Source: a virus. From it: a stretch of 64,000 nt of DNA. The stretch lies in the IMG/VR virus record IMGVR_UViG_3300025127_000012. One strand, given 5' to 3'. This document shows positions 23,626-64,000 of this stretch, in pieces. Within the stretch, counting starts at the first letter, position 1; every line of letters starts with the position of its first letter. Under the pieces are notes generated by a model. The model was not told the origin of the DNA and made no database searches. It worked only from the letters and a program-made list of their open reading frames with translations. The translations under genes were made by a program, and so were the position numbers.

Positions 23626-25271
23626 TTGTAATCCCACATGTAAGACATATCGCCATACTCATCAGTATGCCATACTTGACCCTCATTGTCAATGATGGTT
23701 TCCTCCTCTAATCCGTCACTAACAAATCCAAAAGGTGCCATGTCTGCTTCTATCTGATCTTTCTGCTCCTGATACATTCTCATTCTGACGTCATTGTCAT
23801 GTAGTTCACGGAAATAATCTGATGTTGCTAACCATGAGAACATAACCAGACACATAGCAAGGTCATCATTACAACCCTCTTCTGCTTCCCATGCCTGACC
23901 TCTCTGTATGAATGTAGTCAGTTCTGCAATGATGTCGTAGTCAGATATCAGTAACTTGTCATCTTCTATCAACTGTTTCATATTAGAACATCCTGTCTTC
24001 TTGACAGTTGTACTCATCTTGACTCCTAGTTGTACCTTAGTACCAGAGAACCCTTGTCCTACTACCTGTCCTGCACGTCCGCGCATAGATGCCATAAGGA
24101 TATTGTCATACTCCAAATCAAAGTGCAACATATCCGCAATCTGCCCACCAATATCATTTACCTCCACCAATACATACGCATGGTTATACGCACATGCAAC
24201 ATCATATATGGTATTAGGGAATAGCAGTGGTTTAATTGTGTTATTCCTATATTTTGCTACTACCTTATATGGTATTGTTGTCGTGTCTATGACACAGAAC
24301 GCACTATAATCTTTCGTCACACCCCTTGCTACGTCAACAGTTATACAATAATTCTTATCTTTTTCTGGTTTCTCATATACATCTAGTCCTTTATTCTTCT
24401 GTATAGGTTCATCATACACCATCATCCTTAACTTAGATGCGGAGATAAGAGTATCAACAGATCCCAGGAACTCACACTCAAACTCAACTCTAAACTGTTC
24501 CTCTGATGTGTTCGCTATGGTTTGCTCTTTCCATACTGCATCTCTACCTGGCACCTGTGACCAGTGTACCTCTGTGGTAACGTACTCGTTCTTCTTCCTC
24601 TCGGCATCATGCCAGAGTTTATAGAACATATTCATACCATGTGGTGTAGATATGATAATAACTTTTGTTGATTTACCAGAAGATATAGTAGGATACACAG
24701 AACTGAAAAACTGGTCAGCAATGTGATTCGGAATGAACGCGAATTCGTCCAGAAATATAATATTAAATGACATACCCCTGACAGCAGAAGCGGAAGTAGA
24801 AGCAGCCATGATTTTACTGCCGTTTTCAAGTTCCAGAGAACCTCTGTTCCACTGGTTGATTCCTTGTTGCATCCATTTTGGGAGGTTTTCATAACTTAAT
24901 TGTAGACGTTGTAGCATTTCCCTAGCAGTCGCTGCCTTGTTAGCAAGGATTGCTACGTTCACATTATCATTAAAGATTACATACCATAACAGATATGATG
25001 TAACAACAGTAGACTTACCAGACTGTCTAGGTAACTTAGCAATATTGAATCTATTATCATTAAACTTGTTTACCATGTCTTCTTGGAAGTCATACAAGTC
25101 AAATGGTATAAGACCTTTATCTAGTGAGACGATTCTAATATACTTCTTAATAAAATACACAGGGTCCTGAGAACATTTGACGAACTCTTTCACCTGTGAC
25201 GGAGTAAAACTCTGTGCAACGTTTGCTTTTTTTAAATTAGGGTTACCTAGATACTGATGTTCAGTCGCCAT
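23622..25271 (-). CDS. g17: Terminase large subunit gp17
   Basis: YLGNPNLK, LPRQSGKST, FLDEFAF, STPHG, DVARG..DYS, NDDLAM. Confidence 0.98.
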   Translation of the reverse strand: MATEHQYLGNPNLKKANVAQSFTPSQVKEFVKCSQDPVYFIKKYIRIVSLDKGLIPFDLYDFQEDMVNKFNDNRFNIAKLPRQSGKSTVVTSYLLWYVIFNDNVNVAILANKAATAREMLQRLQLSYENLPKWMQQGINQWNRGSLELENGSKIMAASTSASAVRGMSFNIIFLDEFAFIPNHIADQFFSSVYPTISSGKSTKVIIISTPHGMNMFYKLWHDAERKKNEYVTTEVHWSQVPGRDAVWKEQTIANTSEEQFRVEFECEFLGSVDTLISASKLRMMVYDEPIQKNKGLDVYEKPEKDKNYCITVDVARGVTKDYSAFCVIDTTTIPYKVVAKYRNNTIKPLLFPNTIYDVACAYNHAYVLVEVNDIGGQIADMLHFDLEYDNILMASMRGRAGQVVGQGFSGTKVQLGVKMSTTVKKTGCSNMKQLIEDDKLLISDYDIIAELTTFIQRGQAWEAEEGCNDDLAMCLVMFSWLATSDYFRELHDNDVRMRMYQEQKDQIEADMAPFGFVSDGLEEETIIDNEGQVWHTDEYGDMSYMWDYK

Positions 25272-25998
25272 TCATCCACCATTGCCAATTTCTATTAGGT
25301 ACATCAAATAGAGTATTGTTGATGTAATCATCTGCCCACTCAGGATCGAACCATTGTCCAAGGACTGCCTTGGTTTTCTTGTTCTGCCTTTGTTGCTTAC
25401 AATACCAGATTTGATCATCCATTCTCTTCATAGTATTTATCCAGTTCTTATCTCTCTCAGCACCATATACATGCTCAATGTAGATGTCTAAGTATCTACT
25501 AACTAACTCGACAAACATATTCTTCTCTTTGTTGTCTCGTATACGCATGAACTGTACATAGTCTGAAAATATATCTGCCCACTCTGGTAACTGTCTTCTT
25601 TCTTTAAACTTATATTGACTAGCGATTATATCTAAACCATAGTATATACTACTTGCATTATGTACAGGAGAGATATCACATATCGCAGCAGTAACTATCT
25701 TCGGTGTTGCAACTATATCAGCACCAAATATAGGTAAGGGGTATTCTGGATTAGGAAAGAACACACAGTGCATGACCTCAATGTTCTTTGTATATCCAGT
25801 TTCTAAATGTACTTTCCTTAGACCCTTACACCTATTCATTTCATTAATAATAAACACATCCTCATTTTCTACAATGGGATGTGGATTATCTAATGGTTTA
25901 AGTGCGGGTAAAGTTAATATTTTATGTCTAATTAATGAAGAGACTTCATGAACTAGATTCCCTGTCAATGTAGTTTTTGATGACTTCGAGTTGGTCAT
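25261..25998 (-). CDS. pcyA: Phycocyanobilin:ferredoxin oxidoreductase (ferredoxin-dependent bilin reductase)
   Basis: LRKVHLE, MHCVFFP.P.YPLPIFGADIV, AAICDISP, R.LPEWADIFS, YCKQQRQNKKT..VL; PcyA-type Glu/His/Asp catalytic positions are present. Confidence 0.88.
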   Translation of the reverse strand: MTNSKSSKTTLTGNLVHEVSSLIRHKILTLPALKPLDNPHPIVENEDVFIINEMNRCKGLRKVHLETGYTKNIEVMHCVFFPNPEYPLPIFGADIVATPKIVTAAICDISPVHNASSIYYGLDIIASQYKFKERRQLPEWADIFSDYVQFMRIRDNKEKNMFVELVSRYLDIYIEHVYGAERDKNWINTMKRMDDQIWYCKQQRQNKKTKAVLGQWFDPEWADDYINNTLFDVPNRNWQWWMNGD

Positions 25999-41069: not shown

Positions 41070-41307
41070 TTTCTTTGTTAATAAGTTTCAGTAGTAAATT
41101 TTTGATGTCAGAAACATCAGATTTAAGTTCGTTTACTTCACCTTGCAGATCAGTAAATTCCCTCTTCTTCTTTTGCCTTTGATTATACGACTGCATATAT
41201 TTATCGTACTCGTCAGAGTCCCGATACACAATCGCATTACTTTCGCTATCACGAAACAAACCTTTATTTTCTTCTCCTTCAACAGGGATGAATCTAGGTT
41301 TATCCAT
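41059..41307 (-). CDS. Hypothetical protein (82 aa) following the VrlC-like gene
   Basis: VEG...LFRD..SNAIV..D...Y..Y plus coiled coil; TAATG coupling. Confidence 0.75.
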   Translation of the reverse strand: MDKPRFIPVEGEENKGLFRDSESNAIVYRDSDEYDKYMQSYNQRQKKKREFTDLQGEVNELKSDVSDIKNLLLKLINKENDS

Positions 41308-44300: not shown

Positions 44301-47300
44301 AAATGGTGTCTCATTTGTCTTAGGATCTTCTGATGAGTTCTTAACTAATTCAATTAGTTTTGGAGTAATGTAATTCATTACATTATCACCATCAAAGAAT
44401 CCATACATTCTTGTTTTTGGTTTTACACGTTCTACATCAAATGCAACGTTCCTAGATCTGATCCATGGTATAAATGTGCTATCAATAATACTATCACCAA
44501 GTGAACGTCTGTCAATTCTAGGTACAACTCTGATACGAGTACCAGATCTTACCTGACGACGAGTTGTAGTAATAGTCTCACCCGCTAGGACTCTTCTAGG
44601 TGTACCCCTAGCAAATGTTGTTTCCCTCCATCTTCTTGTCTCTGACCTTCTAGTACCTGTCCAGTTAGTTCTCCATGCATTCCATTGTATAGGAGCAAAT
44701 CCAGCATTGTTAGTTCTGAATCTACGTCTTGTTGCAGTGAAGTTACCTTCAATAGATGTAACTCTTGTAGGAGCACGTCTTGTATCTGTCCAGTCATCAG
44801 ATGCTGGAAGTAAGTCAATACGTCCTATGAATGTGAATACGTTAAATGGGTTAACGTTTTCCATTCTAGAAGCATAAGGTTGGATAATGATTGCTTCTTC
44901 TTCGTATGGAAGAGTCAATACGTTAGCACCTGTCTTACCAGAACGAAGTGATCTAGTATTATGGTCTGTTATATTACTTGATGCACTACCACTAAATTCA
45001 AGAGATATATTAGAGGTGTAGTGTGAAGGACGTAGTATACCATTATTAAAGTCCATAGAACACTTGAAGTCTATATTCTCAACAGCAGAAGTAGAATGAT
45101 CTGTAAAGTCATCTACCATGAAACCGTTTTTCAATCTATCAAAACCATCAGAGTCAAACGCTCTTGTATTTCTAGCGTCTGCTTCTAGTAATGATAATGA
45201 TGTATAGTATTCAAGAGACTGTAAACGTCTATCCATGTTACCTATGTCTTCCATAGTGTAACGACGTTGCTGGTTCAGTGTAATTAAGATGTCCTCTTCT
45301 ACATCATACACATAAGGTTCGTATTGAATTTTGGCAAGTAACATTGCTTTATCAATGTTATCTGCTTCTGGGGGATCTTCATTAGGAACACCCATGGAGA
45401 GTTTTAGATCTCCATCATGTGTCATGAAGAGTTTGTCCTGACGTGGTAGATAGTAGTCGTAGTCGGCACGGAAGAATTCTTCTACTTTGGGTATATTAAA
45501 AATAGTAGAACCACCAGCACCACCTGTGCTTGTAAAAATACGAGAGTCGAAGTCAAGAGACTTACAATTTGTGAAGTACGGTTGCTCCACAGTACCAGAA
45601 CCACTAGCAAGTTCACCAACACCAGGACGGAAATCGATTCCATCTGTTAAGTACTTTGAGTTGCGTTCAGATCTGTACTTAGGTATCTCAGAGAATGATA
45701 TACCAGAGTAAGATTGGTTAGAGAAATAATCGCCAGATGGTTCGTGAATAAAGTAGTCAAATACAACAGCGAGTTTTCTCTTTGGTTCGCTGGTTCCTGC
45801 CTTCCTAACAATTTTTGATACACCATACATGAATGGTGTTTGGTTTGAATCTAGGTCAAAATTACCTGAGATGTCTCTGGATCCTCTTTCGATTGCTCCA
45901 TCACCATCCTCGGTAACACCGACAAGTGCATTCAAGTCAGCATCAAATCCATCAATAGTTTCACCAGTTCCAAAGTAATCAGAACTTAATGGAACTACAT
46001 ACAACCTATTGTTGTTGGAGTTGAATGATACTACCCTTGCCCTTGCACCAGATGTTCTTCCTACAACAACACTACCGTTGTCGAAGAATACGTTTTCTGT
46101 TAGTACAACGTAAGGGACTTGTGCATCATTGTCATCAGTAGATTCATATACAGCATGCACTTTATAAACGTCATTCAATGCAAAAGATATTTCTTCATCT
46201 TCAATTCTTGTACCATACAAGTTACCAAATGCTAATCCGTAATTCATTACATCATTCTGCTCTCTGGTTCTGATAACCTTCATGGTTCTCATCTTAGCAG
46301 CAGTTTTAATTTTCTTAGATACAGTGTTTACAGATACAGCAGCAGTCAGTGTAACACGAGTAATGTTAGCACTACCACCAGAACCATTGTTAATACCAGT
46401 AATTTGTAGTGACTGTCTGTTAGCACCAAATGAAACTGAGATAGTAGGTGATTGTTTTGTGGATTCATTCTCAATATCAAGGTTAGTACCTGGGGACCAA
46501 CCATATCCTGTGTTGGAGTTAGATCCAGTAACGATAGTTAAGTTATAGTTCTCGTTATCTAATGTAGTAAATTGTTCGTTCTCTGGTAGTGTAAATGTAA
46601 CGTCACCAGATGATAACTGTTTGTTATAGAAAGTCTTGATAGATGTAAATGATTCATCAGCGATAGACTTGATTGCCTTCTTAGGCATATCAATTACAAG
46701 TTCACCGTCTCTTACATTCTTCTGTGTAAAGATAGGACGTAAACGTGTAAACTGAATAGCAGGATATTCTGCATCAGTTATACTACCTTTTGTTAAACTA
46801 GAATCTAATACAGCAGTCTGTAATCCAAAATCAAATACAGGAGTTAGACCAGAACTCTTTCTATTAGCAGAAGTAAATGCAATGCTAGTAGAATCTATTC
46901 TCTTAACTCTAAGTGATGTCTGACCTTTGTTGGTAGTAGCAACAGGAGATATAACTTCACCAGGTCTGATATCAGCAGAGAATGCAGTATCGAAACCACT
47001 GATTGTCTTAGTAGAAGATGCTTGGTCAACTGTAACTGTTTTACCAATCAATGATATTGATTCATTTAATGCTAATGATGCAGTAAATGTCACGGTAGCA
47101 GAAGTTGATGGGTCTTCATATCCAACTACCTGACGTACATCAGATTGTTCATAGTTGAATACAGCAGAACATGTATCTAATACACGACCATCTCTTTCTA
47201 GAACTTCTCCTATTTGGAACTCACCAGATACCTGATGAACAACAGCAGAGTCACCAGATGCTTCATATACATATCCTCTTGCACCAGATGAACGTCCTAT

Positions 47301-48752
47301 AATTACCTCTCCATCATTTATAGTCTGTGAACTTGCAAAGTTAATTGCAGTAAACATCTGTATATCAAATAAGAACAAGTTATATCTTGTTCCATCAGTT
47401 TCTAGTTGTAAGACTCTTGCCTTACCAATTTTATTTCCTTGTGCAGCATTAGAAGGACCAGTTCCTAACCAGTTGTCTCTAAGATCAACAACCTGATAAC
47501 AGTTAGTAACACCTTCTCCTGCAATACTTGGCCACCCCCAAATGTCATATACTTCCACTGACTGTGATAAGTCAATAGGAATGATTTGGTTCTGACGTCC
47601 TATAAATGTCCTTGGTTTAGGAGCATCAACATATGTAGATGCAAGTAATTGAGTTCTATAACCTTTTACATATGCTTTACCAGGTCCTACTTCTAGTGCA
47701 GCAAAGTTCTCACTAGCAACCTGATCATCAGGTGATGAAGTTCCTGGAAGATACACACCATTGTTAAACTGATCGTTTAAGTGTTCTCTTGCACGAACCT
47801 CGAATGAGTTAACAACATAGTCACCATGTGTTTCAAATGTACGACGAGCAATAGATTTCTCAATCTCGTTGTATGATGTTGTGTCAACAAAGTTTTCAAC
47901 AGTAGAATTTCTGATACGAAGAAGTTCAATGAAGTTCTTATCTGTATCATCATTAATAGGTTTCTTAACTAACTGTGTTTTAATTCTAAATCTATGTGCA
48001 CCAGGGGCAGAATAGTTAGACGAACCAATAGCATTATCTGTTAATGATGGATCATCTTCTGGCGTGATGATAGATTCTGAGATATCAAAACCAACTCTGT
48101 ATGATGGGTTATTATCATACTGTTCTAATATAATGTATTCAGTAGGAACATCTACAAAGTGTCCTCTTATAAAATATACGCCCTCACTTATATAAGCAGC
48201 AGATCCAATGTCAGTAGAATTTACTGGAAGTAACTGTGCAAATGGTGATCCAACTTCGATCAAACTGTTACCAAAAGTTATCTCATTTTCACATATCAAC
48301 TGTTCGTTATTACCAAACTTCTTTGTAGTAGCGTCAGATGTTGTGTCTCCTGACTCAACATACTTAATATAGAATGTGATATATCCTCTTGTACTTGTTG
48401 TTGCTGGAATAGAGAAAAGAACCTTTGCCTTGATGCCAGTGGTAAGACCCTCTACAATTTTTCCATTTAACTGTGTACGATATGTCTCTACGTCTACTCC
48501 TAAGAATGACTGCTGGATTATTAAACAATCTACGTTAAGGTCATATCCAACTTGACCTGGGATAACCATTGCACCTTCCTTGAAGAGGTGTGATCCCATT
48601 GCTTCCACTTGGTTCTGCAAAATAGATTGCATAGTGGTAAGTTCTCTCGCTTGGATTGGGAATCCTGGTCGAAAGAGAACTCTGTAAAAGTTTTTGTCCT
48701 TATCAAAGTCATCAAAATAAGGAGCTATATTCAGATTGGTATTCTGTGGCAT
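41307..48752 (-). CDS. VrlC/DUF4815-like large virion structural protein (2481 aa)
   Basis: NIAPYFDDFD..KNFYRVLFRPG.PIQARELT, APGAHR, EYYTSLSLLE, KNGFMVDDF, DPLAQSF, SQNASTWT. Confidence 0.9.
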   Translation of the reverse strand: MPQNTNLNIAPYFDDFDKDKNFYRVLFRPGFPIQARELTTMQSILQNQVEAMGSHLFKEGAMVIPGQVGYDLNVDCLIIQQSFLGVDVETYRTQLNGKIVEGLTTGIKAKVLFSIPATTSTRGYITFYIKYVESGDTTSDATTKKFGNNEQLICENEITFGNSLIEVGSPFAQLLPVNSTDIGSAAYISEGVYFIRGHFVDVPTEYIILEQYDNNPSYRVGFDISESIITPEDDPSLTDNAIGSSNYSAPGAHRFRIKTQLVKKPINDDTDKNFIELLRIRNSTVENFVDTTSYNEIEKSIARRTFETHGDYVVNSFEVRAREHLNDQFNNGVYLPGTSSPDDQVASENFAALEVGPGKAYVKGYRTQLLASTYVDAPKPRTFIGRQNQIIPIDLSQSVEVYDIWGWPSIAGEGVTNCYQVVDLRDNWLGTGPSNAAQGNKIGKARVLQLETDGTRYNLFLFDIQMFTAINFASSQTINDGEVIIGRSSGARGYVYEASGDSAVVHQVSGEFQIGEVLERDGRVLDTCSAVFNYEQSDVRQVVGYEDPSTSATVTFTASLALNESISLIGKTVTVDQASSTKTISGFDTAFSADIRPGEVISPVATTNKGQTSLRVKRIDSTSIAFTSANRKSSGLTPVFDFGLQTAVLDSSLTKGSITDAEYPAIQFTRLRPIFTQKNVRDGELVIDMPKKAIKSIADESFTSIKTFYNKQLSSGDVTFTLPENEQFTTLDNENYNLTIVTGSNSNTGYGWSPGTNLDIENESTKQSPTISVSFGANRQSLQITGINNGSGGSANITRVTLTAAVSVNTVSKKIKTAAKMRTMKVIRTREQNDVMNYGLAFGNLYGTRIEDEEISFALNDVYKVHAVYESTDDNDAQVPYVVLTENVFFDNGSVVVGRTSGARARVVSFNSNNNRLYVVPLSSDYFGTGETIDGFDADLNALVGVTEDGDGAIERGSRDISGNFDLDSNQTPFMYGVSKIVRKAGTSEPKRKLAVVFDYFIHEPSGDYFSNQSYSGISFSEIPKYRSERNSKYLTDGIDFRPGVGELASGSGTVEQPYFTNCKSLDFDSRIFTSTGGAGGSTIFNIPKVEEFFRADYDYYLPRQDKLFMTHDGDLKLSMGVPNEDPPEADNIDKAMLLAKIQYEPYVYDVEEDILITLNQQRRYTMEDIGNMDRRLQSLEYYTSLSLLEADARNTRAFDSDGFDRLKNGFMVDDFTDHSTSAVENIDFKCSMDFNNGILRPSHYTSNISLEFSGSASSNITDHNTRSLRSGKTGANVLTLPYEEEAIIIQPYASRMENVNPFNVFTFIGRIDLLPASDDWTDTRRAPTRVTSIEGNFTATRRRFRTNNAGFAPIQWNAWRTNWTGTRRSETRRWRETTFARGTPRRVLAGETITTTRRQVRSGTRIRVVPRIDRRSLGDSIIDSTFIPWIRSRNVAFDVERVKPKTRMYGFFDGDNVMNYITPKLIELVKNSSEDPKTNETPFVIGETVIGLNSGCRLKVVAPNNGLTTNPYTATNDSLPDSYASQTAVLNIDTTEIARQTRGDSYGNIAVGEVLLGQTSGARAVVKDRRLISDLLGIVKGTFFIPNPRRDANPRWATGSRTMRLTSSEQDSRLPGAVDSAAEAEYTARGTLNTLQENVLAVRNASIVRDTVNDRRTVRSVRTNTRQVGWWDPLAQSFLLEAQGGMFVTGVDIYFATKDQKIPISMQIRPMENGYPTKDILPFSDCTLIPSQVEISENASIATKFEFPAPVYIPESEEHCFVLFSDSNEYKVWISRMGDIDITGTRTISEQPYAGVLFKSQNASTWTADQYEDLKFNLYRAKFNTSVTGSAVFNNASLGAGNDGLASLVNNPITTIQPQQNITLATGVTYAFTVGARVIQSPSNAQGTVKEFDSTSDPQVLTVTDISGTFVQGIVDNSGNITNAMKSSQSSATIVLSAISNGVFEVGDVITGSSSGATATVTAYDTGTSTITANYVSKAFDVGNDTLSEPGGVSGTISSASYSGDSYTGYPVSQPTVRAGDKKIIVYQPNHGMHNRANNVELKNVVSEIPATTLTSNLSSTATTLSVNDAGSFHKVVNGKPISTTNPGYVMLVGESSDNLALDPPSPPGGDDDATEAWRSIMHVVSAKEIIAYSAISDNGKEITVAPSGRGITSAVMNTGAALTWPSETTVRCYNLDGVPLTEINKVHTAIGDPTLDTYSLSTQSVASVGIATGGSNVSASQNIPFELITPTIQVLNFKETDIAPTLNTTSGTSIGTGGQVVDQASFVNNGQYDEIQLNEENYYDNPRIICSNINEANKLEGSKSLTMRINMMTEKDNLTPVIDLDRVSVITTSNRINKWPGGPQVLGIQSEIDTTGDVSLLAGGDQNEAIYLTKIAKLANISRSIRLMISMQRYGDSTIDIYYRIQKAGSDKPMNEVGFVKIPVPDVGSTNVGEEEWEDFEYTVEGQEFQAFQIKIVMKAMNQAKVPLIKDLRAIAFAS

Positions 48753-55326: not shown

Positions 55327-58300
55327 TTATTGGAAGAGTTGATTAGGTGTGAAGTTAGAAATTACAGTAGCACCAGTCTGTACTGTTAGGATTACAGAGT
55401 TGGAGTAAACAGGTTGTGCACCAGCAGCGGTGATAGCAACTCTGAACTCATCACCATCATCTGCCTGTTCAGCAGCGTTAGATGTGTAAACTGCTTGTGT
55501 AGAACCAGTGATGTTTGACCATGCAGTTTCACCGTATTGCTTACGCTGCCACTGATAGTTAAGAGGTGTAGTTCCTACACTGTTATCAGATTGTAATCTG
55601 AATGATGCGTCTACTGTGAATGATGCAGTCTGACCTTGGTTAACAGTTACGTTTGTTGGTTGAGCATTTATAACAATATAACCAGCAACGATAACGATTG
55701 GATTACCATCTGCGTCTGTACCTTGTCCAAGGTATGTGTCAAATCCACCGTTAACACCACCACCAGTAGGTGCAACGAAATCATCTTCAACAGTTGTCTC
55801 TACAACAACATCAGGTAATGCATAACCAATACCAGCGTTCTTAACAACGATACTTGATATACCCATCAACGCACGAACACGACCATCAAATCCAGTAGAT
55901 GATATGACATCAACTTGTGGACGTGATGAATAACCATCACCAGGTGTTGTGATTATTGCTTTTGTTATTTCACCAGATTTGATTGTTGATAACGCAGCAG
56001 CGTCACGACCCTTAACAGTTCCTGTGTACTCAAAAGTAATTAAGGAGTTTGAAGATTCAATCAACGCAACTTCACGAGGAGAACCTTCTCCGTCAATCTC
56101 TAATACGTCTCCTGCTTCGATAGGAGGTACGACAGTTGCAGCAATAACGTCAGCATCAGAACCAATATATGAGAACGCTACGAATGTAGATCCTGCACGA
56201 GGAGTTTCAGCAAAGATTATTCTTGAACCAACAAGTTCATAACCTATTCCAGGTTCCTGTATAACACCGTTCAATGAACAGATGATATTGTTCTCTGGAA
56301 GAATAGTGTTAGATGAAACACCTTCTGTTAATGTTAGTGAGTAGAATCCTCCAAGGTATTTGAGGTTGAAGGACGAACGAAGTGAATCAAATTCAAAACT
56401 AATGTCGTCCAACTGGCGTAACTTACCGACATAGTATCCGATAAACTCAGATCCGATAGTTGGAGGTTCTGTAAATTGGATTTGGTCTGAGAAGGCAGTG
56501 TATGCAAAGTTTGCACCTGGGGGTTGTAGAACACCATTAATAAATGTGAGGATATGACCAGCAGGGTCGGGGAAGTATCTTTCGCCATTGTTGACGGTCA
56601 ACTTAAATGTTGTTGCAACCCCATCAAATCCTCTGAAATATCTATCACAACGTCCGAGTAATCCTTTACTTTGTGTAACACCAGCAGTCCAACCATAGTC
56701 AGATATAATACTTAAATTACTTGGGAAGTCACCACTTACATCTTCTAACCACAATCTACCAGTTGTACCAGAAATTGCCTTACCAGCAACACGTCCATAA
56801 GATGTGTAGTTAGTAATTGTATTACTGCTTAGGTTAGCAAATATAATTGGGAAGTTATTAAGGTTCTCAAATTTACCGATGGCACCATTGACTGCTAGGT
56901 TTGGATCATCAACTGTTGAACCATCTGGTGCCTGACCATATGGGGTAAAGTTAGCAAGATATATGTTATGAATACTATTATCAGGATCGTAGTTATATTC
57001 GGTTACAACAGCAGTCCAACCTGGTTCTTTTGGAATAGTTCCTTGTAAGAGATATACTAAATCTCCTGCTGCGAAATCACCTGTAAATCCTTGGTCTCTT
57101 GTGACACTAGCAACCTGATACTGAACAGTCTTAGTACCATGTACAAACTGATTAAGTTCAATTTGATCTAGTCCTGATACTCTAATATCTGCAATATCAA
57201 GAATCCTATCTGTTACAGAACCATAGATGATATCACCATCAACAAAGTCTTGATCTAGTGATTCAATATCAATACTGATTCTACCACCTGTGTTACTTGT
57301 AAGAGCACCAGCAGAGTTTTCATAAAGAACGATATCTGCCTCAGCAGAGTTCGCTTTGTTAAATATCATTTCGTTAACAGCGAACGCTCCTCTTTCTAGG
57401 TTGACCAACATACGAGTCTTACCTGTGCCATTTACACTAGCAGTAACACCACTGTCTACACCTTCTAATACATCATCGTTACTGAATGCACCAGTAATAT
57501 TTTCAACGTAAATATAACCTTCGTTACTATTATCACCTGTTAATACAGATGTCTGAACAATTTGACCGTTGTTAGATGCAGAACCTTGAACCTGTATTGT
57601 TTCTCCATTTGTAAATCTACCAGATGCAGCGTCGATAAAGAACTTGCTGTACAACTTAATAACTTTTGCTTCGTTGTTTCTAGTTCTTATAACGTCAGCA
57701 CGAGAATCAGATGTGATACCAGCAACAACATCAGCAATATTAAATCCACCACTTACAGGTGTGTCAATATCTCTGACACCAAATGTTGTAGGTGCTCTTT
57801 CGATACCAGATCTTACATCAACAGCAAACTGTTGTTGACCAGTTGTAAGAGTGTCTACACGGAAACGTGAGTATCTTGCATCGTGTCTAATCTCTCTTGA
57901 AATCTCGAAATATGTAGGAGTTGCATTAAGAACGTAGAACCAATTCTGTCCTTGTAATCCTTTCTCAATATCTGCTGATGCAGGAACGTAAGTTAATACA
58001 TCACCACGAGAATAGAAATTAGGACGAGTAATCTTAACTCTATGTTCTCTTCTCTCGAATCCAACCTCGACTGTTGGTGTATTAAGAACAAGATCAGGGT
58101 CAGTGTTCCAGTCATTACCTTCATCATATAAGTTACGATCATTGGTTGCATGTGTATTATTGATCCATGTAATAGTATTATTTGTTGGAGGTGTACCTCT
58201 GGTTAATGCAAACTCAGCAACGTTAATTGATGCGTCCATGAAGAACTCAGTAGATTCCTTCTGGTATTCAATACGATTGATTATAGCATCAGAGAGAGTA

Positions 58301-61300
58301 GGATCAAAGTATGCATCGTAAGTATTATTCTGTCCCCATTCTGATGTATTATTCTGGTCATAGGATATACGTTTTGCTGCCTCTGCAATACGCAAGAGAT
58401 AGAATACTAAGTGTTGTCTAACAACAGTTGGGAATGCAATAAAGTTACCTTCACCATCGAACCATGTATTTACATACTTCATCATTCCAGCATTACCACG
58501 AGTGTTCAAGTCGTAGATAATAGCATCCATTATAGTTTCTGCAAACCCTATTTCAGCGTTAGTTGTAGGATATTGTGATTGTGTCTCAGCAAATGCCTTA
58601 CGAGAGATTGCTCCTTTGTTGAATGTTAGATATCTTGCAATGAAACGTTCAGAATAGTTACCACCTGTGTGTGGAGAATTACCACCACCAAGTGTATCAA
58701 TCATGAGATCAAATAATGTATCAGATGCAGATACAACGTTATAACATGTATATAACTGATATGCAGCATTACTATTATATGGGGTTGTTCTAGTAACAGT
58801 TGTTAGATGACTAGGAGCAGGACTTGAAGATGCTGCCACCTCGATTGTATCCATTACAAGATTAAATAATGTCTCAATACCAGATGCTGCCTGTGCACAA
58901 GTATTGTTCCAACCAGATGTACCACCATTTTCATCAAATGTGATTGTTGTGTCACGATTTGCCATGTCATTGGCATACTTGATTGGCCAAATGTTTGGTA
59001 GTGATTTCTGAATTGTACCATCAGTTATCTGTACAGGATTAGCAAGTGTATCAGTAACGATAGATGTAAATGTTGTTAGGGCAGATGCTACGTCAGCACA
59101 AAGAGGTGTACTACCATCAGCAGTAATAGTATAGTTTGATTGATTGTATGGGAAGAAATCTAAGTCAGTGAATAATTTCTGTGAGAATCCATGTGTAGAA
59201 CCAGCAGTATTAACAGTCTCTTGTCTCATTACTTGTATAGCAAGATCTCTTGCTTTATTCATTACCCAAGTTACTTCTGTAACGTAACCAGAAACGTGTG
59301 CAAGTGCAGTTCCATCTGTATACATTTCAGCAGCATGGAATACTTTGTTGTTACCACCATTGCGTAAATTCCACTGCATTGCATCAAGAACATCAGTAAC
59401 GTCTTGTACACAGTCATGCTTACCAGCAACAGTAATTGCTTCATGTTCTGCTCTTACAAATGTATGTGCATATTGATCGTTTGCACCAGCAGCACCAACA
59501 TTAAATGTAAATGTATTTGTACCTGTTGATGTGATCGCAATACCTTTGTTATACCAAGGATCGGTTGTTCTAGGATATGCATGCTCAGAATTATTATTAT
59601 CCTTAGTACATGTGAATACTAATGATTCTTGGCGTACATAGATCTTACGCCCTGTTGTTAGTCCATGAGCAGAACCATGGTCATATGTTATAACACCAGT
59701 AGCAGCATCATATGTCATGCTTCCTGCTGCTGGGGTGAATGGACCCACGCCACTTACCCAATCAGTGTTGTGTAGTGATGGGAATTGTACAAGCATTTCA
59801 TGTACTGCTTGTTCTGCAATAAATCTAATGTTTCTTTCAACTATATTTGCAGCATCAATGAATCTATCAATTACAGCATTCTGTTCATATGTACTTGTTT
59901 CAACTTCATTAAATGATTCAGTAGTACCACCACCAGTTACCTCTCCACCTTCTGTTGTACCAGAATTATCTTCTGGATCGTAGATGTAAAGGTTCTCTCT
60001 ACCAAATCCATTTCTCATGGTAAGGATTGCTATTTCCATTGCCCATGTCATTGCCCACTTAGATGCTTTATCTTCACCTTCTACATGGATAAGACTGCTA
60101 TCTTCTGGATCAAGATATAGTGCAGCAGCATCCCAAGTCTTAGAGTTACCACCTAGTCTAATATCATGAACCATTGCTTCTATAACATCTACTAAATCAT
60201 CAGCACAATTTGTTCTACCACCTGGAACTTGGAAGTCTAGGAAGTAAGACATATCATTCATTGTATGAACTGCTTCCCATGCAATAACATGTTTGTTTCT
60301 TTCTAACTGATCAGCAGTATCCATCCAGATGTTATGACTTGGAGAAACTCTACTTTGGTCAGGTGCCTGTGTGTCTATGGTGACTGTTGTATCTCTGTAT
60401 GCTTCTATCTGTGTGTACTGAGCAACATAGTAATCATCTACATATTCAGCTGAGATTCCAAGACTAGATGCAGTTGTACCGAATGTTAATAGTGTTTGGT
60501 TAATTGCATGATGTGCTAATTTCTTAGTATGCTCAAATGCATCCAACATAGCACTTAGTTGATCTTCTACATGAATGATCTGACTAGAAGGATTGATGTA
60601 TTGATCAATAGCATATTGTGTAGCAGAGTTACCACCTGTTAATAGATCAGTAACAACAGCAGGAAGAATGTAAACCTTAATATCTCTTTCACAATATGGT
60701 TGACCATATCCAGGCATCACTAAGAAGTCATAATCTGTGCCATTGATATTTGCTTTATAATCATCTTGTATTTTAAGAGCAACTTCTTCTGCAATGTAAT
60801 CTCTATTCTTCCATAATGCATCACCCGCATCTCTGAACCTATCACCAGTAGGAGCAAGAATATTAATTATTTGATCTGCTAGATTTGTTATCTCATCTTG
60901 TATTGCCTGAGATGCAGGAGAAGAGAAGTTATTAGGAACTCTTAGAATCTCTGTATACTTAGTTCCAGCAGCAGGATAATTTACAAGATCACTACTTGTA
61001 GTTGTAATGATATAGTTCATTACATTAGCAAGTTCATTCCAAGCATATACAGATTGTAGAAGTTCATTACCAACGTAATCTAAACCACCCGCCTTGGTTA
61101 GATATCCTCTACCAGAGATTGTACTGTTATAATTACCACCATATCTAAGGTCAGCAATAATTGCTTTTGCGATATATTCCTTAGTATCACGAACACACTT
61201 AGCAGTACCAGTTGTGCTAGTATTACTATCACCTGGAATTATGAAATCAGGATATTTTGCTGCCATTAAACCAACAGCAGTTTCTGCCATCCAGTCTAAG

Positions 61301-64000
61301 TTAAGTTCTAATATATCTGCTGCTTCTCTATATGAGTCTCTACCTAGGTCAATATCTTCAATGATAACTTCCTTAGTATCATAATTAACTTTCTTACTTG
61401 TAGCAGTAGAGTTTGTCTGACCTGTGTATATACCGAAGCAGTCTTCTGTACTGATAATTATTGGTGACTCACAATCTAATCCAAATGTTACCTTGGCAGT
61501 ATCTGTTGGATATGTAAATCCTGGGGTAAATGTATTTGAGTACTTAGATTCTGTATGGAGTAGGAAGTTATCCATATGTCCAACAAATCCATTAGCACCC
61601 TGCCAATCAGCAGCAATAGTAAATGGTCTTTCTAGGTAGTCATTAGTATCATTGTAATCACCACCAACTTGTGTACCATTTACAAATAACTTAGTAATAC
61701 CTGTTGTTCTGGTAACAGCAATATGACTCCAAACATTAGCAGTTAAGTTATGTGCACCAGCAATTTGATCTGTGCTATTGTACCAGTATTTGATTTGTGT
61801 TCCATCAAGATATAATACAGGAGATCCTACCAATGTTGCACTTGTAGTTCTTGTGTCGTATAAGAACTGTGTACCAGTCACTGCATTAGGACGTATCCAC
61901 ATTTCAATAGTAAAGTCATTAGTACCAAACTTCTGACGATCAGATAATGTATGTGCTAAGTAAGAACCAGCGTCGAATCTTATTGATTGTGTTCCTGCTT
62001 TCTTTTGTAGTTTTGTTAGAACAGCAGAACCATTAACAGTTAATTTAGAGTTAGAGACATACTCTCTATCTTGGAATGAACCAGTAACAGCGTTAGTGAA
62101 CAACCACTTCAATCCAGCGTTTGTTCCCTTACATATAAAGTTAGCATTAGAAGTTGCACCTCTGATTGTTTCACCAGGAAGGAAGAATCCATTACCTTCT
62201 AGATCTTTATATGCAATCTTAAATACTCTGAGGTTTTCATTCTCTACATATCCACCATCATTTAGAGCAGCACCAGTAGGAACAGCACTAAGTGATCCTG
62301 CACCTATTGCAGTAGTAACGTGTGTTATTAATGTATGAATGCCTGCTTGAACGTCTGCACAATTACCAAGACCTTCGTTAACTCCACTATAATAATTAGG
62401 ATCATAATATGCTGCTTCGGTTCCGCCCCCATTGTATACAGCATTAGGTTCAGCAGAAATAAATGTATGAGTGAAACCACCACCACTGCTAACAGCGTTA
62501 GAAGAGGCAGTAACGAATGTATGTGCATATTGATCAGTCTGGGCAGAAGCACCAACGTTTACAGATATAGTAGTTGAATCCTTAGCAACAACTGGTAAAG
62601 ATGCACCAGATGCAGGGTCAGTTGTTCTTGGATATTGTTTTGGTGTGGTGTTGTTGTCTTGTGTACAAGTAAATGTAATTGAAAGGTCAGCAATCGTAAC
62701 TGGATCACCTATATCAAGGTTATGAGATCCAATAGTCAATACCATCACACCTGTTGCTGGGTCGTATGTTGCACCAGTAGGTGTGTATTGTACAAGAGGT
62801 GATGCACCAACATCAACAGTAATAGATGTAGGTGTTGTAGCAGATATATTTAGATCAGCGTTAAATGCTGGGTCACCTGTTCTAGGATATGGGTGGAATG
62901 TTGCTCCACCGTCCATAGTACATGTAAAGTTCAAACTGTAAGGTCTAATCTTAACAGTATCTGATGTTGTCAAACTATGACTACCAATAGTCATTACTAA
63001 TTGACCATTAGCAGGAGTATATGTGACAGCAGTTGGTGTAAATTGTGTTAGTGTAGTTCCAGCAGCACCAAGATAAGGACCTTGATATGTTGTTGGATCT
63101 TTCAACATATAACCTGTCTCAGGTGTTCTTGTGTTGACCTGTACATATAATAAATTATTGATTGCTTTCTTACATAATTCTGCTACATGCTTAAATGCAG
63201 ATAGATATTCTTTTACCTCTCCTACAAATCCGTTAGTAATAGGAACACCAAGATTATCAAAGTATGTCTTGATAAACTTGACAGTTTGGAAGTTACCATC
63301 ACTTGTGATATCTGCTGATAATGCATCTACAAGATATCCTATGTCTCTTCTGCACTTAATTTCATGTGCAGTGTACTGTGTGACAGTTACCTCGTCAAGT
63401 AAATCAGCGAGAGAACCAGCAGTAAGTACAACAGAAACGTTGTCATATAAAGTTTGTAAAGCTGACTGAACATCTGAACAGTTAGTTGCTCCATAGTTTG
63501 TGGTATTTGTGCCAGCAGTTCCATAAGGATTACCTGGTGAAGGGTCAGCAGTAATCCCAGTTCCGCTGGAACCACCAGCAGTTCTTTCATTATACTTAAC
63601 GTAGGTCACACCATCAACAGTTTCAGAACCAGTGAGCATATTGCTCAATGCCTGTTTCATCAAACTAACTGCCTGACCAAATGCATAGTTAGTTGCCTCT
63701 GCCTCATTATTTACATATAAGAAGGTCGTACCATCAGTTGAGAAATACTTTTGTAACAATTTGCGTGTGTATTTCGTACCACCACTGTAAACGTCGAATG
63801 CCAATGCCTCGATCATATACTTGGTATCTCTAATACACTTAGGTCCAGATGGAATTGTTAATGATGGATATTGTGCAACCATCAATGCATATGCTTTGTT
63901 AGCAATGTAATCTATATTTCTGATGATTAGACGATAAGCATCAGCATATCTACTCCAAGCATCAGTCATGTTATCACCTGGATAGTAGAATCCTGGGTGC
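55327..64000 (-). CDS. Giant gp7-like baseplate/virion protein (3' part; frame open to the window edge) with phycobiliprotein-like repeats, LamG and Ig domains
   Basis: Reading frame stays open upstream of the track's Met (HPGFYYPGDN-MTD). C-terminal FDG..T.F.L / NGVLQ.PG and LDDIS..FD modules, LamG domain (DFTIEMW...WSHIAV...LFVNG), terminal Ig domain. Lies upstream of g8. Confidence 0.8.
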   Translation of the reverse strand, partial: HPGFYYPGDNMTDAWSRYADAYRLIIRNIDYIANKAYALMVAQYPSLTIPSGPKCIRDTKYMIEALAFDVYSGGTKYTRKLLQKYFSTDGTTFLYVNNEAEATNYAFGQAVSLMKQALSNMLTGSETVDGVTYVKYNERTAGGSSGTGITADPSPGNPYGTAGTNTTNYGATNCSDVQSALQTLYDNVSVVLTAGSLADLLDEVTVTQYTAHEIKCRRDIGYLVDALSADITSDGNFQTVKFIKTYFDNLGVPITNGFVGEVKEYLSAFKHVAELCKKAINNLLYVQVNTRTPETGYMLKDPTTYQGPYLGAAGTTLTQFTPTAVTYTPANGQLVMTIGSHSLTTSDTVKIRPYSLNFTCTMDGGATFHPYPRTGDPAFNADLNISATTPTSITVDVGASPLVQYTPTGATYDPATGVMVLTIGSHNLDIGDPVTIADLSITFTCTQDNNTTPKQYPRTTDPASGASLPVVAKDSTTISVNVGASAQTDQYAHTFVTASSNAVSSGGGFTHTFISAEPNAVYNGGGTEAAYYDPNYYSGVNEGLGNCADVQAGIHTLITHVTTAIGAGSLSAVPTGAALNDGGYVENENLRVFKIAYKDLEGNGFFLPGETIRGATSNANFICKGTNAGLKWLFTNAVTGSFQDREYVSNSKLTVNGSAVLTKLQKKAGTQSIRFDAGSYLAHTLSDRQKFGTNDFTIEMWIRPNAVTGTQFLYDTRTTSATLVGSPVLYLDGTQIKYWYNSTDQIAGAHNLTANVWSHIAVTRTTGITKLFVNGTQVGGDYNDTNDYLERPFTIAADWQGANGFVGHMDNFLLHTESKYSNTFTPGFTYPTDTAKVTFGLDCESPIIISTEDCFGIYTGQTNSTATSKKVNYDTKEVIIEDIDLGRDSYREAADILELNLDWMAETAVGLMAAKYPDFIIPGDSNTSTTGTAKCVRDTKEYIAKAIIADLRYGGNYNSTISGRGYLTKAGGLDYVGNELLQSVYAWNELANVMNYIITTTSSDLVNYPAAGTKYTEILRVPNNFSSPASQAIQDEITNLADQIINILAPTGDRFRDAGDALWKNRDYIAEEVALKIQDDYKANINGTDYDFLVMPGYGQPYCERDIKVYILPAVVTDLLTGGNSATQYAIDQYINPSSQIIHVEDQLSAMLDAFEHTKKLAHHAINQTLLTFGTTASSLGISAEYVDDYYVAQYTQIEAYRDTTVTIDTQAPDQSRVSPSHNIWMDTADQLERNKHVIAWEAVHTMNDMSYFLDFQVPGGRTNCADDLVDVIEAMVHDIRLGGNSKTWDAAALYLDPEDSSLIHVEGEDKASKWAMTWAMEIAILTMRNGFGRENLYIYDPEDNSGTTEGGEVTGGGTTESFNEVETSTYEQNAVIDRFIDAANIVERNIRFIAEQAVHEMLVQFPSLHNTDWVSGVGPFTPAAGSMTYDAATGVITYDHGSAHGLTTGRKIYVRQESLVFTCTKDNNNSEHAYPRTTDPWYNKGIAITSTGTNTFTFNVGAAGANDQYAHTFVRAEHEAITVAGKHDCVQDVTDVLDAMQWNLRNGGNNKVFHAAEMYTDGTALAHVSGYVTEVTWVMNKARDLAIQVMRQETVNTAGSTHGFSQKLFTDLDFFPYNQSNYTITADGSTPLCADVASALTTFTSIVTDTLANPVQITDGTIQKSLPNIWPIKYANDMANRDTTITFDENGGTSGWNNTCAQAASGIETLFNLVMDTIEVAASSSPAPSHLTTVTRTTPYNSNAAYQLYTCYNVVSASDTLFDLMIDTLGGGNSPHTGGNYSERFIARYLTFNKGAISRKAFAETQSQYPTTNAEIGFAETIMDAIIYDLNTRGNAGMMKYVNTWFDGEGNFIAFPTVVRQHLVFYLLRIAEAAKRISYDQNNTSEWGQNNTYDAYFDPTLSDAIINRIEYQKESTEFFMDASINVAEFALTRGTPPTNNTITWINNTHATNDRNLYDEGNDWNTDPDLVLNTPTVEVGFERREHRVKITRPNFYSRGDVLTYVPASADIEKGLQGQNWFYVLNATPTYFEISREIRHDARYSRFRVDTLTTGQQQFAVDVRSGIERAPTTFGVRDIDTPVSGGFNIADVVAGITSDSRADVIRTRNNEAKVIKLYSKFFIDAASGRFTNGETIQVQGSASNNGQIVQTSVLTGDNSNEGYIYVENITGAFSNDDVLEGVDSGVTASVNGTGKTRMLVNLERGAFAVNEMIFNKANSAEADIVLYENSAGALTSNTGGRISIDIESLDQDFVDGDIIYGSVTDRILDIADIRVSGLDQIELNQFVHGTKTVQYQVASVTRDQGFTGDFAAGDLVYLLQGTIPKEPGWTAVVTEYNYDPDNSIHNIYLANFTPYGQAPDGSTVDDPNLAVNGAIGKFENLNNFPIIFANLSSNTITNYTSYGRVAGKAISGTTGRLWLEDVSGDFPSNLSIISDYGWTAGVTQSKGLLGRCDRYFRGFDGVATTFKLTVNNGERYFPDPAGHILTFINGVLQPPGANFAYTAFSDQIQFTEPPTIGSEFIGYYVGKLRQLDDISFEFDSLRSSFNLKYLGGFYSLTLTEGVSSNTILPENNIICSLNGVIQEPGIGYELVGSRIIFAETPRAGSTFVAFSYIGSDADVIAATVVPPIEAGDVLEIDGEGSPREVALIESSNSLITFEYTGTVKGRDAAALSTIKSGEITKAIITTPGDGYSSRPQVDVISSTGFDGRVRALMGISSIVVKNAGIGYALPDVVVETTVEDDFVAPTGGGVNGGFDTYLGQGTDADGNPIVIVAGYIVINAQPTNVTVNQGQTASFTVDASFRLQSDNSVGTTPLNYQWQRKQYGETAWSNITGSTQAVYTSNAAEQADDGDEFRVAITAAGAQPVYSNSVILTVQTGATVISNFTPNQLFQ

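What the first reader, a model, noticed from the sequence alone, without database searches (positions are those of the whole stretch)
58400..63969. Giant virion baseplate protein built from phycobiliprotein-like domains that keep the bilin-attachment cysteines
SEEN: at least six helical repeats with consensus R(F/Y)xDAxxxLxxNxxxIAxxA-x6-(Y/F)P-x(2-3)-IPG...KC-x-R-D-x7-A-x3-D-x3-GG(N/T)...helix. Cys codons are at 63835-37 (KCIRD), 63352-54 (KCRRDIGY), 61195-97 (KCVRD), 60691-93 (YCERD), 60205-07 (NCADD) and 59410-12 (DCVQD); a degenerate Cys-less copy lies near 58400-58650. A second motif C-x-(D/Q/N)-(V/A)-x-(S/A)-(A/G)-x-x-T-(L/F) occurs five times (63478, 62359, 59098, 58897, 58744). ESTABLISHED (from memory of the family): phycocyanin/phycoerythrin subunits read RL(D/E)A...N...(I/V)V..A...(KYP/QPQLIAPGG)...KCARDIGYYLR...GGTG around the alpha84/beta82 chromophore Cys, where Arg and Asp stabilise the protonated bilin. 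They read GDCSALASEIASYFD at beta155, whose counter-ion is the Asp of RLDA. Repeat 3 (KYPDFIIPGDSNTSTTGTAKCVRD) and repeat 2 (KCRRDIGY) match these closely, and TNCSDVQSALQTLYD matches the beta155 helix. Repeat 3 has E instead of D in the R..DA motif and lacks the helix-H Cys, as expected if the two co-vary. The subunit-pairing X/Y helices appear to be absent. INFERENCE: a poly-phycobiliprotein structural protein with up to 11 bilin sites in this fragment alone. The virion could be pigmented, for light-gated adsorption or tail triggering, photoprotection, or mimicry. I am not aware of this having been described.
Basis: partly seen in the sequence, partly recalled or inferred. Interest (0 to 1): 0.95.

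Follow-up and report, generated by a model that had tools for sequence, protein, structure and literature searches.

The report
Phycobiliprotein-like domains in cyanophage baseplate protein
A giant baseplate protein of a marine cyanobacterial virus contains seven domains that are true relatives of the host's light-harvesting pigment proteins and keep their pigment-attachment residues, so the virus particle may carry pigment, which could explain why some of these viruses attach to cells only in light.

Summary
The minus-strand ORF 55327-63999 is the C-terminal 2,890 aa of a ~7,077-aa baseplate protein; the window edge cuts the gene. It holds seven phycobiliprotein (PBP)-like domains, some nested inside one another.

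Homology and fold:
- Pfam PF00502 scores 38.6 bits against a cut-off of 22.2.
- A profile of 136 repeats hits only PBPs in the PDB (best E 5e-6).
- hhalign against CpcA gives 94.7% probability.
- An AlphaFold model (pLDDT 90.8) superposes on phycoerythrin/phycocyanin beta chains at Z 16-17 and 2.0-2.5 A. The X/Y pairing helices are missing.

Conservation:
- In 1,774 repeats from 177 proteins the Cys84/Arg86/Asp87 equivalents stand at 95/92/98%.
- A second Cys aligns with beta-Cys155. It occurs only where helix A carries the beta-Asp39 equivalent.

Context:
- An ortholog was found in purified virions by mass spectrometry.
- The phage encodes PcyA.
- Three phages reported to need light to adsorb carry the domain. 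Two that adsorb in the dark lack it.

Bilin binding itself is unproven. I found no paper describing this. The same scan noted the same feature earlier in other cyanophage genomes.

The parts
55327..63999 (-). C-terminal 2,890 codons of the giant baseplate gene, cut by the window end. The full ORF is ~7,077 aa in the near-identical record G001.
   Evidence: PHROG 701/2885; ortholog S-SZBM1_208 found in virions by MS
63970..63999 (-). End of the helix-B/loop part (HPGFYYPGDN) of domain R0/R2. Its helices A-B lie upstream of the window.
63640..63942 (-). PBP-like domain R1 core (aa 10-110), motif KCIRD, Cys45 at 63835-63837
   Evidence: HMM E 3e-26; PF00502 21.9 bits; aligned to phycoerythrin alpha KCLRD
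63415..63483 (-). Closing helix H of R1 with the second-site Cys164 (NCSDVQSALQTLYD)
   Evidence: the column aligns with beta-Cys155
63154..63426 (-). Helices E-G of the split domain R0/R2 (aa 182-272), motif KCRRDIGY, Cys206 at 63352-63354
   Evidence: HMM positions 14-102 only, E 4e-19
62530..63063 (-). Two beta-rich insert domains (aa 303-480) between helix G and helix H of R0/R2
   Evidence: PHROG 5342/1276 stretches; sequence
62296..62364 (-). Closing helix with Cys537 (NCADVQAGIHTL), assigned to R0/R2
61555..61950 (-). Laminin_G_3 (concanavalin-like) domain, aa 674-805
   Evidence: PF13385, E 1e-17
60850..61326 (-). PBP-like domain R3 (aa 882-1040) with its own helix H. Motif KCVRD, Cys925 at 61195-61197. 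Glu replaces Asp in helix A and Ser replaces the second Cys.
   Evidence: PF00502 23.3 bits; AF2 pLDDT 90.8; Z 17.2 to PE beta
60499..60831 (-). PBP-like domain R4 core (aa 1047-1157), YCERD, Cys1093 at 60691-60693
   Evidence: HMM E 2e-26
60010..60321 (-). PBP-like domain R5 core (aa 1217-1320), NCADD, Cys1255 at 60205-60207
   Evidence: HMM E 1e-26
59224..59859 (-). PBP-like domain R6 (aa 1371-1400 plus 1501-1582), split by a beta-domain insert in the B-E loop. DCVQD, Cys1520 at 59410-59412.
   Evidence: two HMM pieces, positions 1-30 and 18-101
58681..59100 (-). Three stacked Cys-bearing closing helices (Cys1624, 1691, 1742), modelled as packing back on R6, R5 and R4
   Evidence: complex model ipSAE 0.70 against best control 0.00
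58363..58638 (-). Degenerate PBP-like domain R7 (aa 1778-1869) without Cys, Arg or Asp
   Evidence: HMM E 1.5e-12
25261..25998 (-). pcyA (phycocyanobilin:ferredoxin oxidoreductase), directly upstream of the terminase gene. A possible chromophore supply.
   Evidence: NF002760 equivalog, 232.6 bits against cut-off 206; PHROG 7278

Best explanation
The gene encodes the giant protein that occupies the gp7 ('baseplate wedge initiator') position of a T4-like cyanomyovirus. Residues ~4160-6070 of the full protein (aa 1-1870 of the window's ORF) are an array of seven domains descended from a cyanobacterial phycobiliprotein. They have lost the X/Y helices that pair alpha with beta subunits, and they are wired into one chain, partly by insertion of one domain into a loop of another. 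This much is shown. Six of the seven keep the Cys84-type attachment cysteine, and four of those keep the full C-x-R-D triad. Five also keep a beta-Cys155-type cysteine together with the Asp39-type aspartate. My inference is that these pockets still take up a bilin during assembly in the infected cell. The bilin (phycocyanobilin or phycoerythrobilin) would come from the host or from the phage's own PcyA. Attachment would be by host lyases, by autocatalysis, or at the second site by the T-type lyase CpeT that related phages encode. The virion would then carry some tens of covalently bound bilins on its baseplate. The most likely use is light sensing that gates adsorption or baseplate triggering. 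Photoprotection or pure stabilisation of the fold by the bound bilin are alternatives.
For: Homology and fold:
- PF00502 scores E 1.3e-9, 38.6 bits against a cut-off of 22.2, from two independent repeats.
- 14 of 27 homologs carry precomputed PF00502.
- The repeat profile hits 129 PDB sequences; the top 60 are all phycobiliproteins, best E 5e-6, with Cys/Arg/Asp laid on KC84-A-R86-D87.
- hhalign against a CpcA alignment gives Prob 94.7, E 6e-8. Against CpcB it gives Prob ~70, E 5e-6.
- The AF2 model has pLDDT 90.8. The top 50 Foldseek hits are all PBPs. VIA gives Z 17.2, 2.5 A over 147 residues to PE beta residues 28-184.

Site conservation:
- The Cys is the only invariant column among 136 repeats at ~20% identity.
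- In 1,774 repeats of 177 proteins (mean identity 30%), Cys is 95.3%, Arg 92.2%, Asp 97.9% and full CxRD 90.6%.
- Second site: the global profile alignment puts the helix-H N-cap Cys on beta-Cys155 and the helix-A Asp on beta-Asp39.
- All 22 Cys-bearing rows have that Asp, against 25 of 69 others. In the larger set it is 58 of 60.
- In this protein the five domains with Asp are the five that get a Cys helix.

Virion location and bilin genes:
- Ortholog S-SZBM1_208 was detected with 71 peptides in CsCl-purified virions (PMC9146016).
- pcyA lies in the window. CpeT is present in S-WAM1 and S-SZBM1.

Phenotype link:
- S-PM2, P-HM1 and P-HM2 need light to adsorb (PMC6628666) and carry 12, 6 and 6 matches.
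- P-SSM2 and P-SSP7 adsorb in the dark and have none, even at E 10.
Against: - No bilin has been shown on any of these proteins. None of the library searches returned a paper describing PBP-like domains or bilin pigment in cyanophage virions, or coloured or fluorescent virions.
- Two further near-invariant positions, Asp at Cys+14 (97.5%) and Tyr at about Cys+30 (97.6%), have no counterpart that I know of among conserved PBP positions. The site may have been remodelled.
- Cys84-type sites normally need S/U- or E/F-type lyases, whereas most T4-like cyanophages encode only T-type lyases.
- P-SSM2 has bilin-synthesis genes (PMC2984593) but no such domain. S-WAM1 and S-SZBM1 have the domain but no bilin reductase or heme oxygenase. 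The phage bilin genes and the domain are therefore not strictly coupled.
- No cpeT was found in the window or in the 80-kb related record.
- The Cys155/Asp39 association is not significant once relatedness is controlled for.
- The adsorption correlation rests on five phages, two of which are close relatives.
Confidence: 0.55

Rival explanations
1. The domains are PBP-derived but chromophore-free. The globin-like fold was recruited as a rigid building block or receptor-binding module of the baseplate periphery. In this view the conserved C-x-R-D plus Asp/Tyr form a site with a new role, such as an inter-domain or inter-subunit disulfide, metal binding or a contact surface.
For: - The X/Y helices and the PBP oligomer interfaces are gone.
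- The domains sit among lectin-like, CBM-like and beta-repeat modules typical of fibre and adhesin proteins.
- The phage-specific near-invariant Asp and Tyr suggest a changed site.
- No pigmented virion is on record in the library searched.
- Domain presence and phage bilin genes are uncoupled.
Against: - A structural role does not explain why exactly the three PBP chromophore-site residues are the most conserved positions over 1,774 repeats at 30% identity.
- It also does not explain why a second Cys/Asp pair reproduces the beta-155 site.
- From general knowledge, apo-phycobiliproteins are usually unstable without bilin.
- There is one invariant Cys per domain with no conserved partner in the same domain.
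Confidence: 0.3
2. The pocket binds another small molecule or a different tetrapyrrole, or the Cys is a reactive nucleophile that forms a covalent bond with a host surface component during attachment.
For: A conserved single Cys with a neighbouring Arg/Asp could serve other chemistry. The site carries extra conserved residues that PBPs lack.
Against: No precedent in the PBP fold known to me. The residues conserved are those that hold bilin in PBPs. Nothing in the tests points to another ligand.
Confidence: 0.1
3. The resemblance to phycobiliproteins is chance or convergence among helical repeats, and the domains are unrelated to PBPs.
For: Single-repeat Pfam scores sit at the threshold (21.9 and 23.3 bits). 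Foldseek E-values are only ~1e-2. Helical folds give inflated structural Z scores (note).
Against: - Four independent lines agree and all return PBPs only: Pfam, profile against PDB, hhalign and the fold search.
- Z 17 over 135-147 residues at 2.0-2.5 A lies above the helical background of ~13-14 quoted by the tool.
- The register is identical in every alignment.
- The domain is confined to cyanophages: 256 phage records, all of them cyanophages.
Confidence: 0.03

Closest known systems
Phycobiliprotein alpha/beta subunits (Pfam PF00502: phycocyanin, phycoerythrin, allophycocyanin)
   Same: Same globin-like core, helices A, B, E, F, G and H (Z 16-17). Same Cys84/Arg86/Asp87 motif in the same register. 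In part of the domains, also the beta-Cys155 and Asp39 equivalents.
   Different: No X/Y helices, so no alpha-beta pairing or disc assembly. The domains are covalently chained, up to 37 per protein, and nested inside a multi-thousand-residue virion protein. There are extra near-invariant Asp and Tyr positions. Chromophore not shown.
ApcE / core-membrane linker (LCM) phycobiliprotein-like domain
   Same: From my own knowledge, not tested here: a PBP-like domain embedded in a large multidomain polypeptide, interrupted by a loop insertion, and attaching its bilin autocatalytically. This is a precedent for a lyase-independent PBP domain that is part of a larger chain.
   Different: ApcE has a single PBP domain in a cellular antenna protein and is part of the phycobilisome core. 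It is neither a tandem or nested array nor a virion component.
T4 gp7 baseplate wedge initiator and the giant cyanomyovirus structural proteins (PHROG 701/2885; S-SZBM1_208, S-WAM1 gp159)
   Same: Gene position between a gp6-like and a gp8-like gene. Orthologs are annotated as baseplate wedge initiator and were detected in virions.
   Different: About seven times the size of T4 gp7. phmmer finds no match to solved T4 baseplate chains. In the records seen here these proteins are named structural, tail or hypothetical proteins, never phycobiliprotein-like.
Bilin photoreceptors (phytochromes, cyanobacteriochromes)
   Same: Only the proposed working principle: a Cys-linked bilin whose light-driven change alters protein conformation.
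   Different: Unrelated GAF fold. No similarity was found or expected. PBPs are antenna pigments and are not known to act as photoswitches.

Membership tests
Phycobiliprotein family (PF00502) | Sequence match to the family profile above the curated cut-off | tested here: met
   38.6 bits against 22.2, E 1.3e-9. Single repeats score 21.9 and 23.3 bits. The reverse profile against the PDB finds only PBPs. hhalign Prob 94.7.
Phycobiliprotein family (PF00502) | Globin-like PBP core fold (helices A, B, E, F, G, H) | tested here: met
   AF2 pLDDT 90.8. Z 17.2, rmsd 2.5 A over 147 residues to PE beta. Z ~16, 2.0 A over 135 residues to PC beta. This is a predicted model, not an experimental one.
Phycobiliprotein family (PF00502) | N-terminal X/Y helix hairpin that pairs alpha with beta subunits | tested here: not met
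   Structural alignments start at chain residue 28-31. Repeats follow one another with no room for X/Y.
Phycobiliprotein family (PF00502) | Cys84 with Arg86 and Asp87 in helix E | tested here: met
   Six of seven domains here have the Cys. Four have the full CxRD; R5 has CADD and R6 has CVQD. Family-wide: Cys 95.3%, Arg 92.2%, Asp 97.9%.
Phycobiliprotein family (PF00502) | Covalently bound bilin chromophore | not testable with these tools
   Needs spectroscopy, Zn-blot or MS of virions or recombinant domains.
Phycobiliprotein family (PF00502) | Assembly into (alpha-beta)3 discs of a phycobilisome | not tested
   Unlikely, given the missing X/Y helices and the single-chain context. This is inference only.
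Beta-subunit second chromophore site (beta-Cys155 with Asp39) | Cys at the N-cap of helix H together with Asp in helix A | tested here: inconclusive
   The global hhalign places the columns on beta-Cys153(155) and Asp39, but with low per-column confidence. The Cys is present in 24% of helix-H-bearing repeats. Cys implies Asp in 22/22 and 58/60 cases. The tree-controlled test had no power.
T4 gp7-type baseplate wedge initiator | Sequence similarity to gp7 or baseplate wedge profiles, and the gene position | tested here: inconclusive
   PF23786 Baseplate_wedge scores 28.3 bits against cut-off 27 in the N-terminal part held only in G001. PHROG 2885 'baseplate wedge subunit' matches. The gene lies between a gp6-like and a gp8-like gene. 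No phmmer hit to solved structures.
T4 gp7-type baseplate wedge initiator | Presence in the virion | tested here: met
   By orthology only: S-SZBM1_208, 6,619 aa, 71 peptides in CsCl-purified particles (PMC9146016).

The most novel reading that the evidence does not exclude
Cyanomyovirus particles carry their own bilin-based light sensor. The phycobiliprotein-derived domains in baseplate and fibre proteins would bind bilin and make adsorption or baseplate triggering depend on light. That would explain the light-dependent adsorption of S-PM2, P-HM1 and P-HM2. It would also give the phage-encoded T-type lyase (CpeT), and part of the phage bilin-synthesis genes, a substrate on the virus itself.
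Probability: 0.25. Interest if true: 0.95.

Novelty: new variant of a known kind. Interest (0 to 1): 0.86.

Why it matters
Two questions in cyanophage biology have stood open for over a decade. [quoted passage not shown] The second is why these phages carry bilin-synthesis and lyase genes whose benefit is called unclear (PMC2984593).

A widespread family of virion domains that keep the bilin-attachment residues of phycobiliproteins gives both questions a concrete candidate that is cheap to test. The family has 1,724 cluster representatives in metagenomes and up to 37 copies per protein. If bilin is bound, this would be, as far as I know, the first pigment-bearing phage virion and a new use of the phycobiliprotein fold outside light harvesting. 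If it is not bound, it is still a clear case of a host antenna protein recruited as a structural module of a virus.

Tried and rejected
- Single-sequence AlphaFold of aa 1-300 gave an unusable model (pLDDT 36). The model built with an alignment replaced it.
- phmmer of the N-terminal 1,300 aa and the C-terminal 1,000 aa against the PDB found nothing, so the gp7 assignment rests on gene order, PHROGs and annotation.
- The window's own assembly is not held. The related 80-kb record has pcyA but no cpeT or ho1. tblastn with the S-WAM1 CpeT finds nothing in the window. Whether this phage has a lyase is therefore unknown.
- The search for related loci with PcyA in genome contigs found nothing.
- A near-length search with the repeat profile returned only fragments of phage proteins, no free-standing PBPs and no named proteins.
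- The independent-pairs test of Cys155-like against Asp39-like had only 4-8 usable pairs and gave p about 1. The raw association therefore cannot be separated from shared ancestry.
- Six library searches looking for prior descriptions of PBP-like domains or bilin pigment in cyanophage virions returned nothing relevant. The BBAG/PBP-origin paper (PMC10151467, found) mentions phages only for PcyX/PcyA.
- I considered and rejected chance resemblance (see rivals). I also rejected the reading that the three stacked Cys helices are unrelated to the PBP cores, on the evidence.
Full report
**What is there.** The region lies in one minus-strand ORF, 55327-63969 from the first ATG, 2,880 aa. The frame stays open to the last base of the window. 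The ten codons upstream read HPGFYYPGDN. A virus record, G001, shares 66% of the window's k-mers and is 99% identical over aa 1-300. It carries the same sequence inside a single 7,077-aa ORF. The window therefore holds only the C-terminal 41% of the gene.

The window comes from a T4-like cyanomyovirus. tblastn with aa 1-300 hits 256 phage records, all of them cyanophages. The best are S-WAM1 and S-SZBM1 (63% identity) and P-RSM6 (50%). Downstream genes are baseplate wedge genes (PHROG 677, 708, 438), two further giant ORFs, then gp13, gp14 and gp15. Upstream in G001 lies a gp6-like gene. The orthologs are S-WAM1 gp159 (6,737 aa) and S-SZBM1_208 (6,619 aa, 'baseplate wedge initiator'). The latter was detected with 71 peptides in CsCl-purified virions (PMC9146016).

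**The observation.** An HMM seeded from five of the repeats and iterated over 28 homologs finds seven copies in this ORF:

| Domain | Residues | Motif at the Cys84 position |
|---|---|---|
| R1 | aa 10-110 | KCIRD |
| R2 | aa 182-272, helices E-G only | KCRRD |
| R3 | aa 882-989 | KCVRD |
| R4 | aa 1047-1157 | YCERD |
| R5 | aa 1217-1320 | NCADD |
| R6 | aa 1371-1400 plus 1501-1582, split by an insert | DCVQD |
| R7 | aa 1778-1869 | none, degenerate |

Per-copy E-values run from 1e-12 to 1e-27. No other ORF of the window has the repeat.

**Relation to phycobiliproteins.**
- Pfam PF00502 matches the ORF at E 1.3e-9, 38.6 bits against a cut-off of 22.2. This comes from two separate repeats that score 21.9 and 23.3 bits alone.
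- Fourteen of 27 homologs carry the same precomputed Pfam hit.
- A profile of 136 repeat instances (alignment A1) searched against all PDB sequences returns 129 hits. The top 60 are all phycobiliproteins, best R-phycocyanin alpha at E 5e-6. The phage Cys, Arg and Asp are laid on K-C84-A-R86-D87, and the helix-B Asn on the PBP Asn.
- I took cpcBA loci from cyanobacterial genomes. hhalign of A1 against a CpcA alignment gives Prob 94.7%, E 6e-8. Against CpcB it gives Prob about 70%, E 5e-6, over 142 columns.
- AlphaFold2 with A1 gives a confident model of R3 (pLDDT 90.8, pTM 0.89).
- The top 50 Foldseek hits in the PDB are all phycobiliproteins.
- VIA-align gives Z 17.2, rmsd 2.5 A over 147 residues to phycoerythrin beta. 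It gives Z about 16 at 2.0 A over 135 residues to phycocyanin beta. Alignments always start at chain residue 28-31.

One caveat applies: the model is a prediction, and the network has seen PBP structures.

**Conservation of the chromophore-site residues.** In A1 the Cys is the only invariant column, at about 20% pairwise identity. The profile search of 1.84 billion cluster representatives finds 1,724 proteins at E <= 1e-3 and 800 at E <= 1e-30, with up to 37 repeats in one protein. In 1,774 repeat instances from 177 proteins (mean pairwise identity 30%) the figures are Cys 95.3%, Arg 92.2%, Asp 97.9% and complete C-x-R-D 90.6%. Two further positions are equally conserved: an Asp 14 residues after the Cys, and a Tyr about 30 after it. 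I know of no counterpart to them among conserved PBP positions.

**The second motif.**
- C-A-[DN]-V-x-S-A-I-x-T-L is a real recurrent element, with 155 instances.
- In the R3 model the corresponding helix is helix H, and the motif's Cys column sits at its N-cap.
- The global hhalign puts that column on beta-Cys153 (consensus 155), and the helix-A 'DA' Asp on beta-Asp39.
- Only 24% of helix-H-bearing repeats have the Cys.
- All 22 that do have the Asp, against 25 of 69 others. In the larger set the figure is 58 of 60.
- A tree-based independent-pairs test had too few usable pairs to confirm co-variation.

**Nested wiring.** R2 lacks helices A-B. They lie just upstream of the window, so R1 is inserted into the B-E loop of that domain. 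R4, R5 and R6 have no helix H of their own, and three Cys helices follow R6.

In orthologs the three helices are conserved (two of the three Cys are invariant in 8 sequences). Yet they can lie 1,400-2,300 aa away from the cores, as expected if more domains are inserted in the innermost loop.

A complex prediction of cores (aa 1036-1600) against helices (aa 1610-1770) scores ipSAE 0.70 against a best control of 0.00. That mark was reached by 58 of 80 solved complexes and 2 of 110 mismatched pairs. The runs agree in at least 71% of contacts and the partner's pLDDT is at least 66. All three cores and all three helices are in the interface. This is two halves of one chain with a known fold, so the pass may reflect likeness to solved PBPs.

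With this wiring, the five domains with Asp in helix A (R0/R2, R1, R4, R5, R6) are exactly the five that receive a Cys helix. R3 has Glu and Ser. R7 has neither.

**Bilin supply and phenotype.** The window encodes PcyA (equivalog NF002760, 232.6 bits against 206), directly upstream of the terminase gene. S-WAM1 and S-SZBM1 encode a CpeT-family lyase but no bilin reductase or heme oxygenase. No cpeT is in the window.

The literature states that adsorption of S-PM2, P-HM1 and P-HM2 needs light. For S-PM2 it states that this is independent of host photosynthesis. It also states that P-SSM2 and P-SSP7 adsorb in the dark (PMC6628666). With the same profile, S-PM2, P-HM1 and P-HM2 give 12, 6 and 6 matches. 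P-SSM2 and P-SSP7 give none, even at E 10. This is five phages, two of them near-identical, so it is only a lead. P-SSM2 also shows that phage bilin genes (PMC2984593) exist without the domain.

**Interpretation.**
- Shown: a PBP-derived, X/Y-less, nested domain array in a virion baseplate protein, with the chromophore-site residues under strong constraint.
- Inferred: the pockets still bind bilin (my odds about 0.55), and the pigment serves light-gated adsorption (about 0.25 overall).
- The main rival is a chromophore-free scaffold with a repurposed site (0.3).

**Novelty.** Six library searches found no paper describing this. UniProt names of the viral proteins with this fold are 'structural protein', 'tail protein' and the like. 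Pfam hits exist in precomputed tables. Earlier notes and follow-ups of this same scan reported the same feature in other cyanophage genomes, and the nested reading on this window. I tested these points again here on my own data.

Noticed in passing
window 62530-63063 and 59476-59751 (aa 303-480, 1407-1498): A ~85-aa beta-rich module with the motifs F-T-C-T-x-D and Y-P-R-T-x-D-P occurs three times, each time inserted into a loop of a PBP-like domain. It has its own conserved Cys. It matches PHROG 1276/5342 but no Pfam family.
   Followed up: no
window 25261-25998 (-), next to the terminase gene 23622-25271: pcyA overlaps the start of the large terminase gene by 11 nt, so a bilin-synthesis gene sits inside the late structural/packaging block. 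I confirmed only the gene's identity.
   Followed up: partly
window 41307-48752 (-) and 33946-40782 (-): Two more giant ORFs (2,481 and 2,278 aa) lie between the baseplate genes and gp13. Neither contains a PBP-like repeat.
   Followed up: partly
window 58950-59010 (aa ~1655-1672): The linker between closing helices 1 and 2 carries an L-P-N-I-W-P-x-K-Y motif, with P, W and P invariant in 8 orthologs. In the complex model it has the lowest-error contacts with the R6 core.
   Followed up: no
records NC_006883 (P-SSM2) and NC_006882 (P-SSP7): P-SSM2 is a T4-like cyanomyovirus said to carry pebS and pcyA. It has no PBP-like domain at all, whereas P-HM1, P-HM2 and S-PM2 have 6-12. This matches the published dark or light adsorption phenotypes.
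   Followed up: partly
window 55327-55700 (aa ~2767-2862): The C-terminus matches a Hoc-like Ig decoration domain (PHROG 4069, E 0.005). A weak DUF4183 hit lies at aa 2467-2507.
   Followed up: no
window 26170-26631 (-): A 153-aa ORF gives weak matches below cut-off to thermonuclease/EcnA-type nucleases (NCBIfam E 9e-11).
   Followed up: no
G001 (L008 973-13560), N-terminal 4,196 aa outside the window: The missing N-terminal part of the protein carries YHYH (PF14240), a second Laminin_G_3, a CBM_5_12-like stretch and a Baseplate_wedge (PF23786) match, but no PBP-like repeat.
   Followed up: partly
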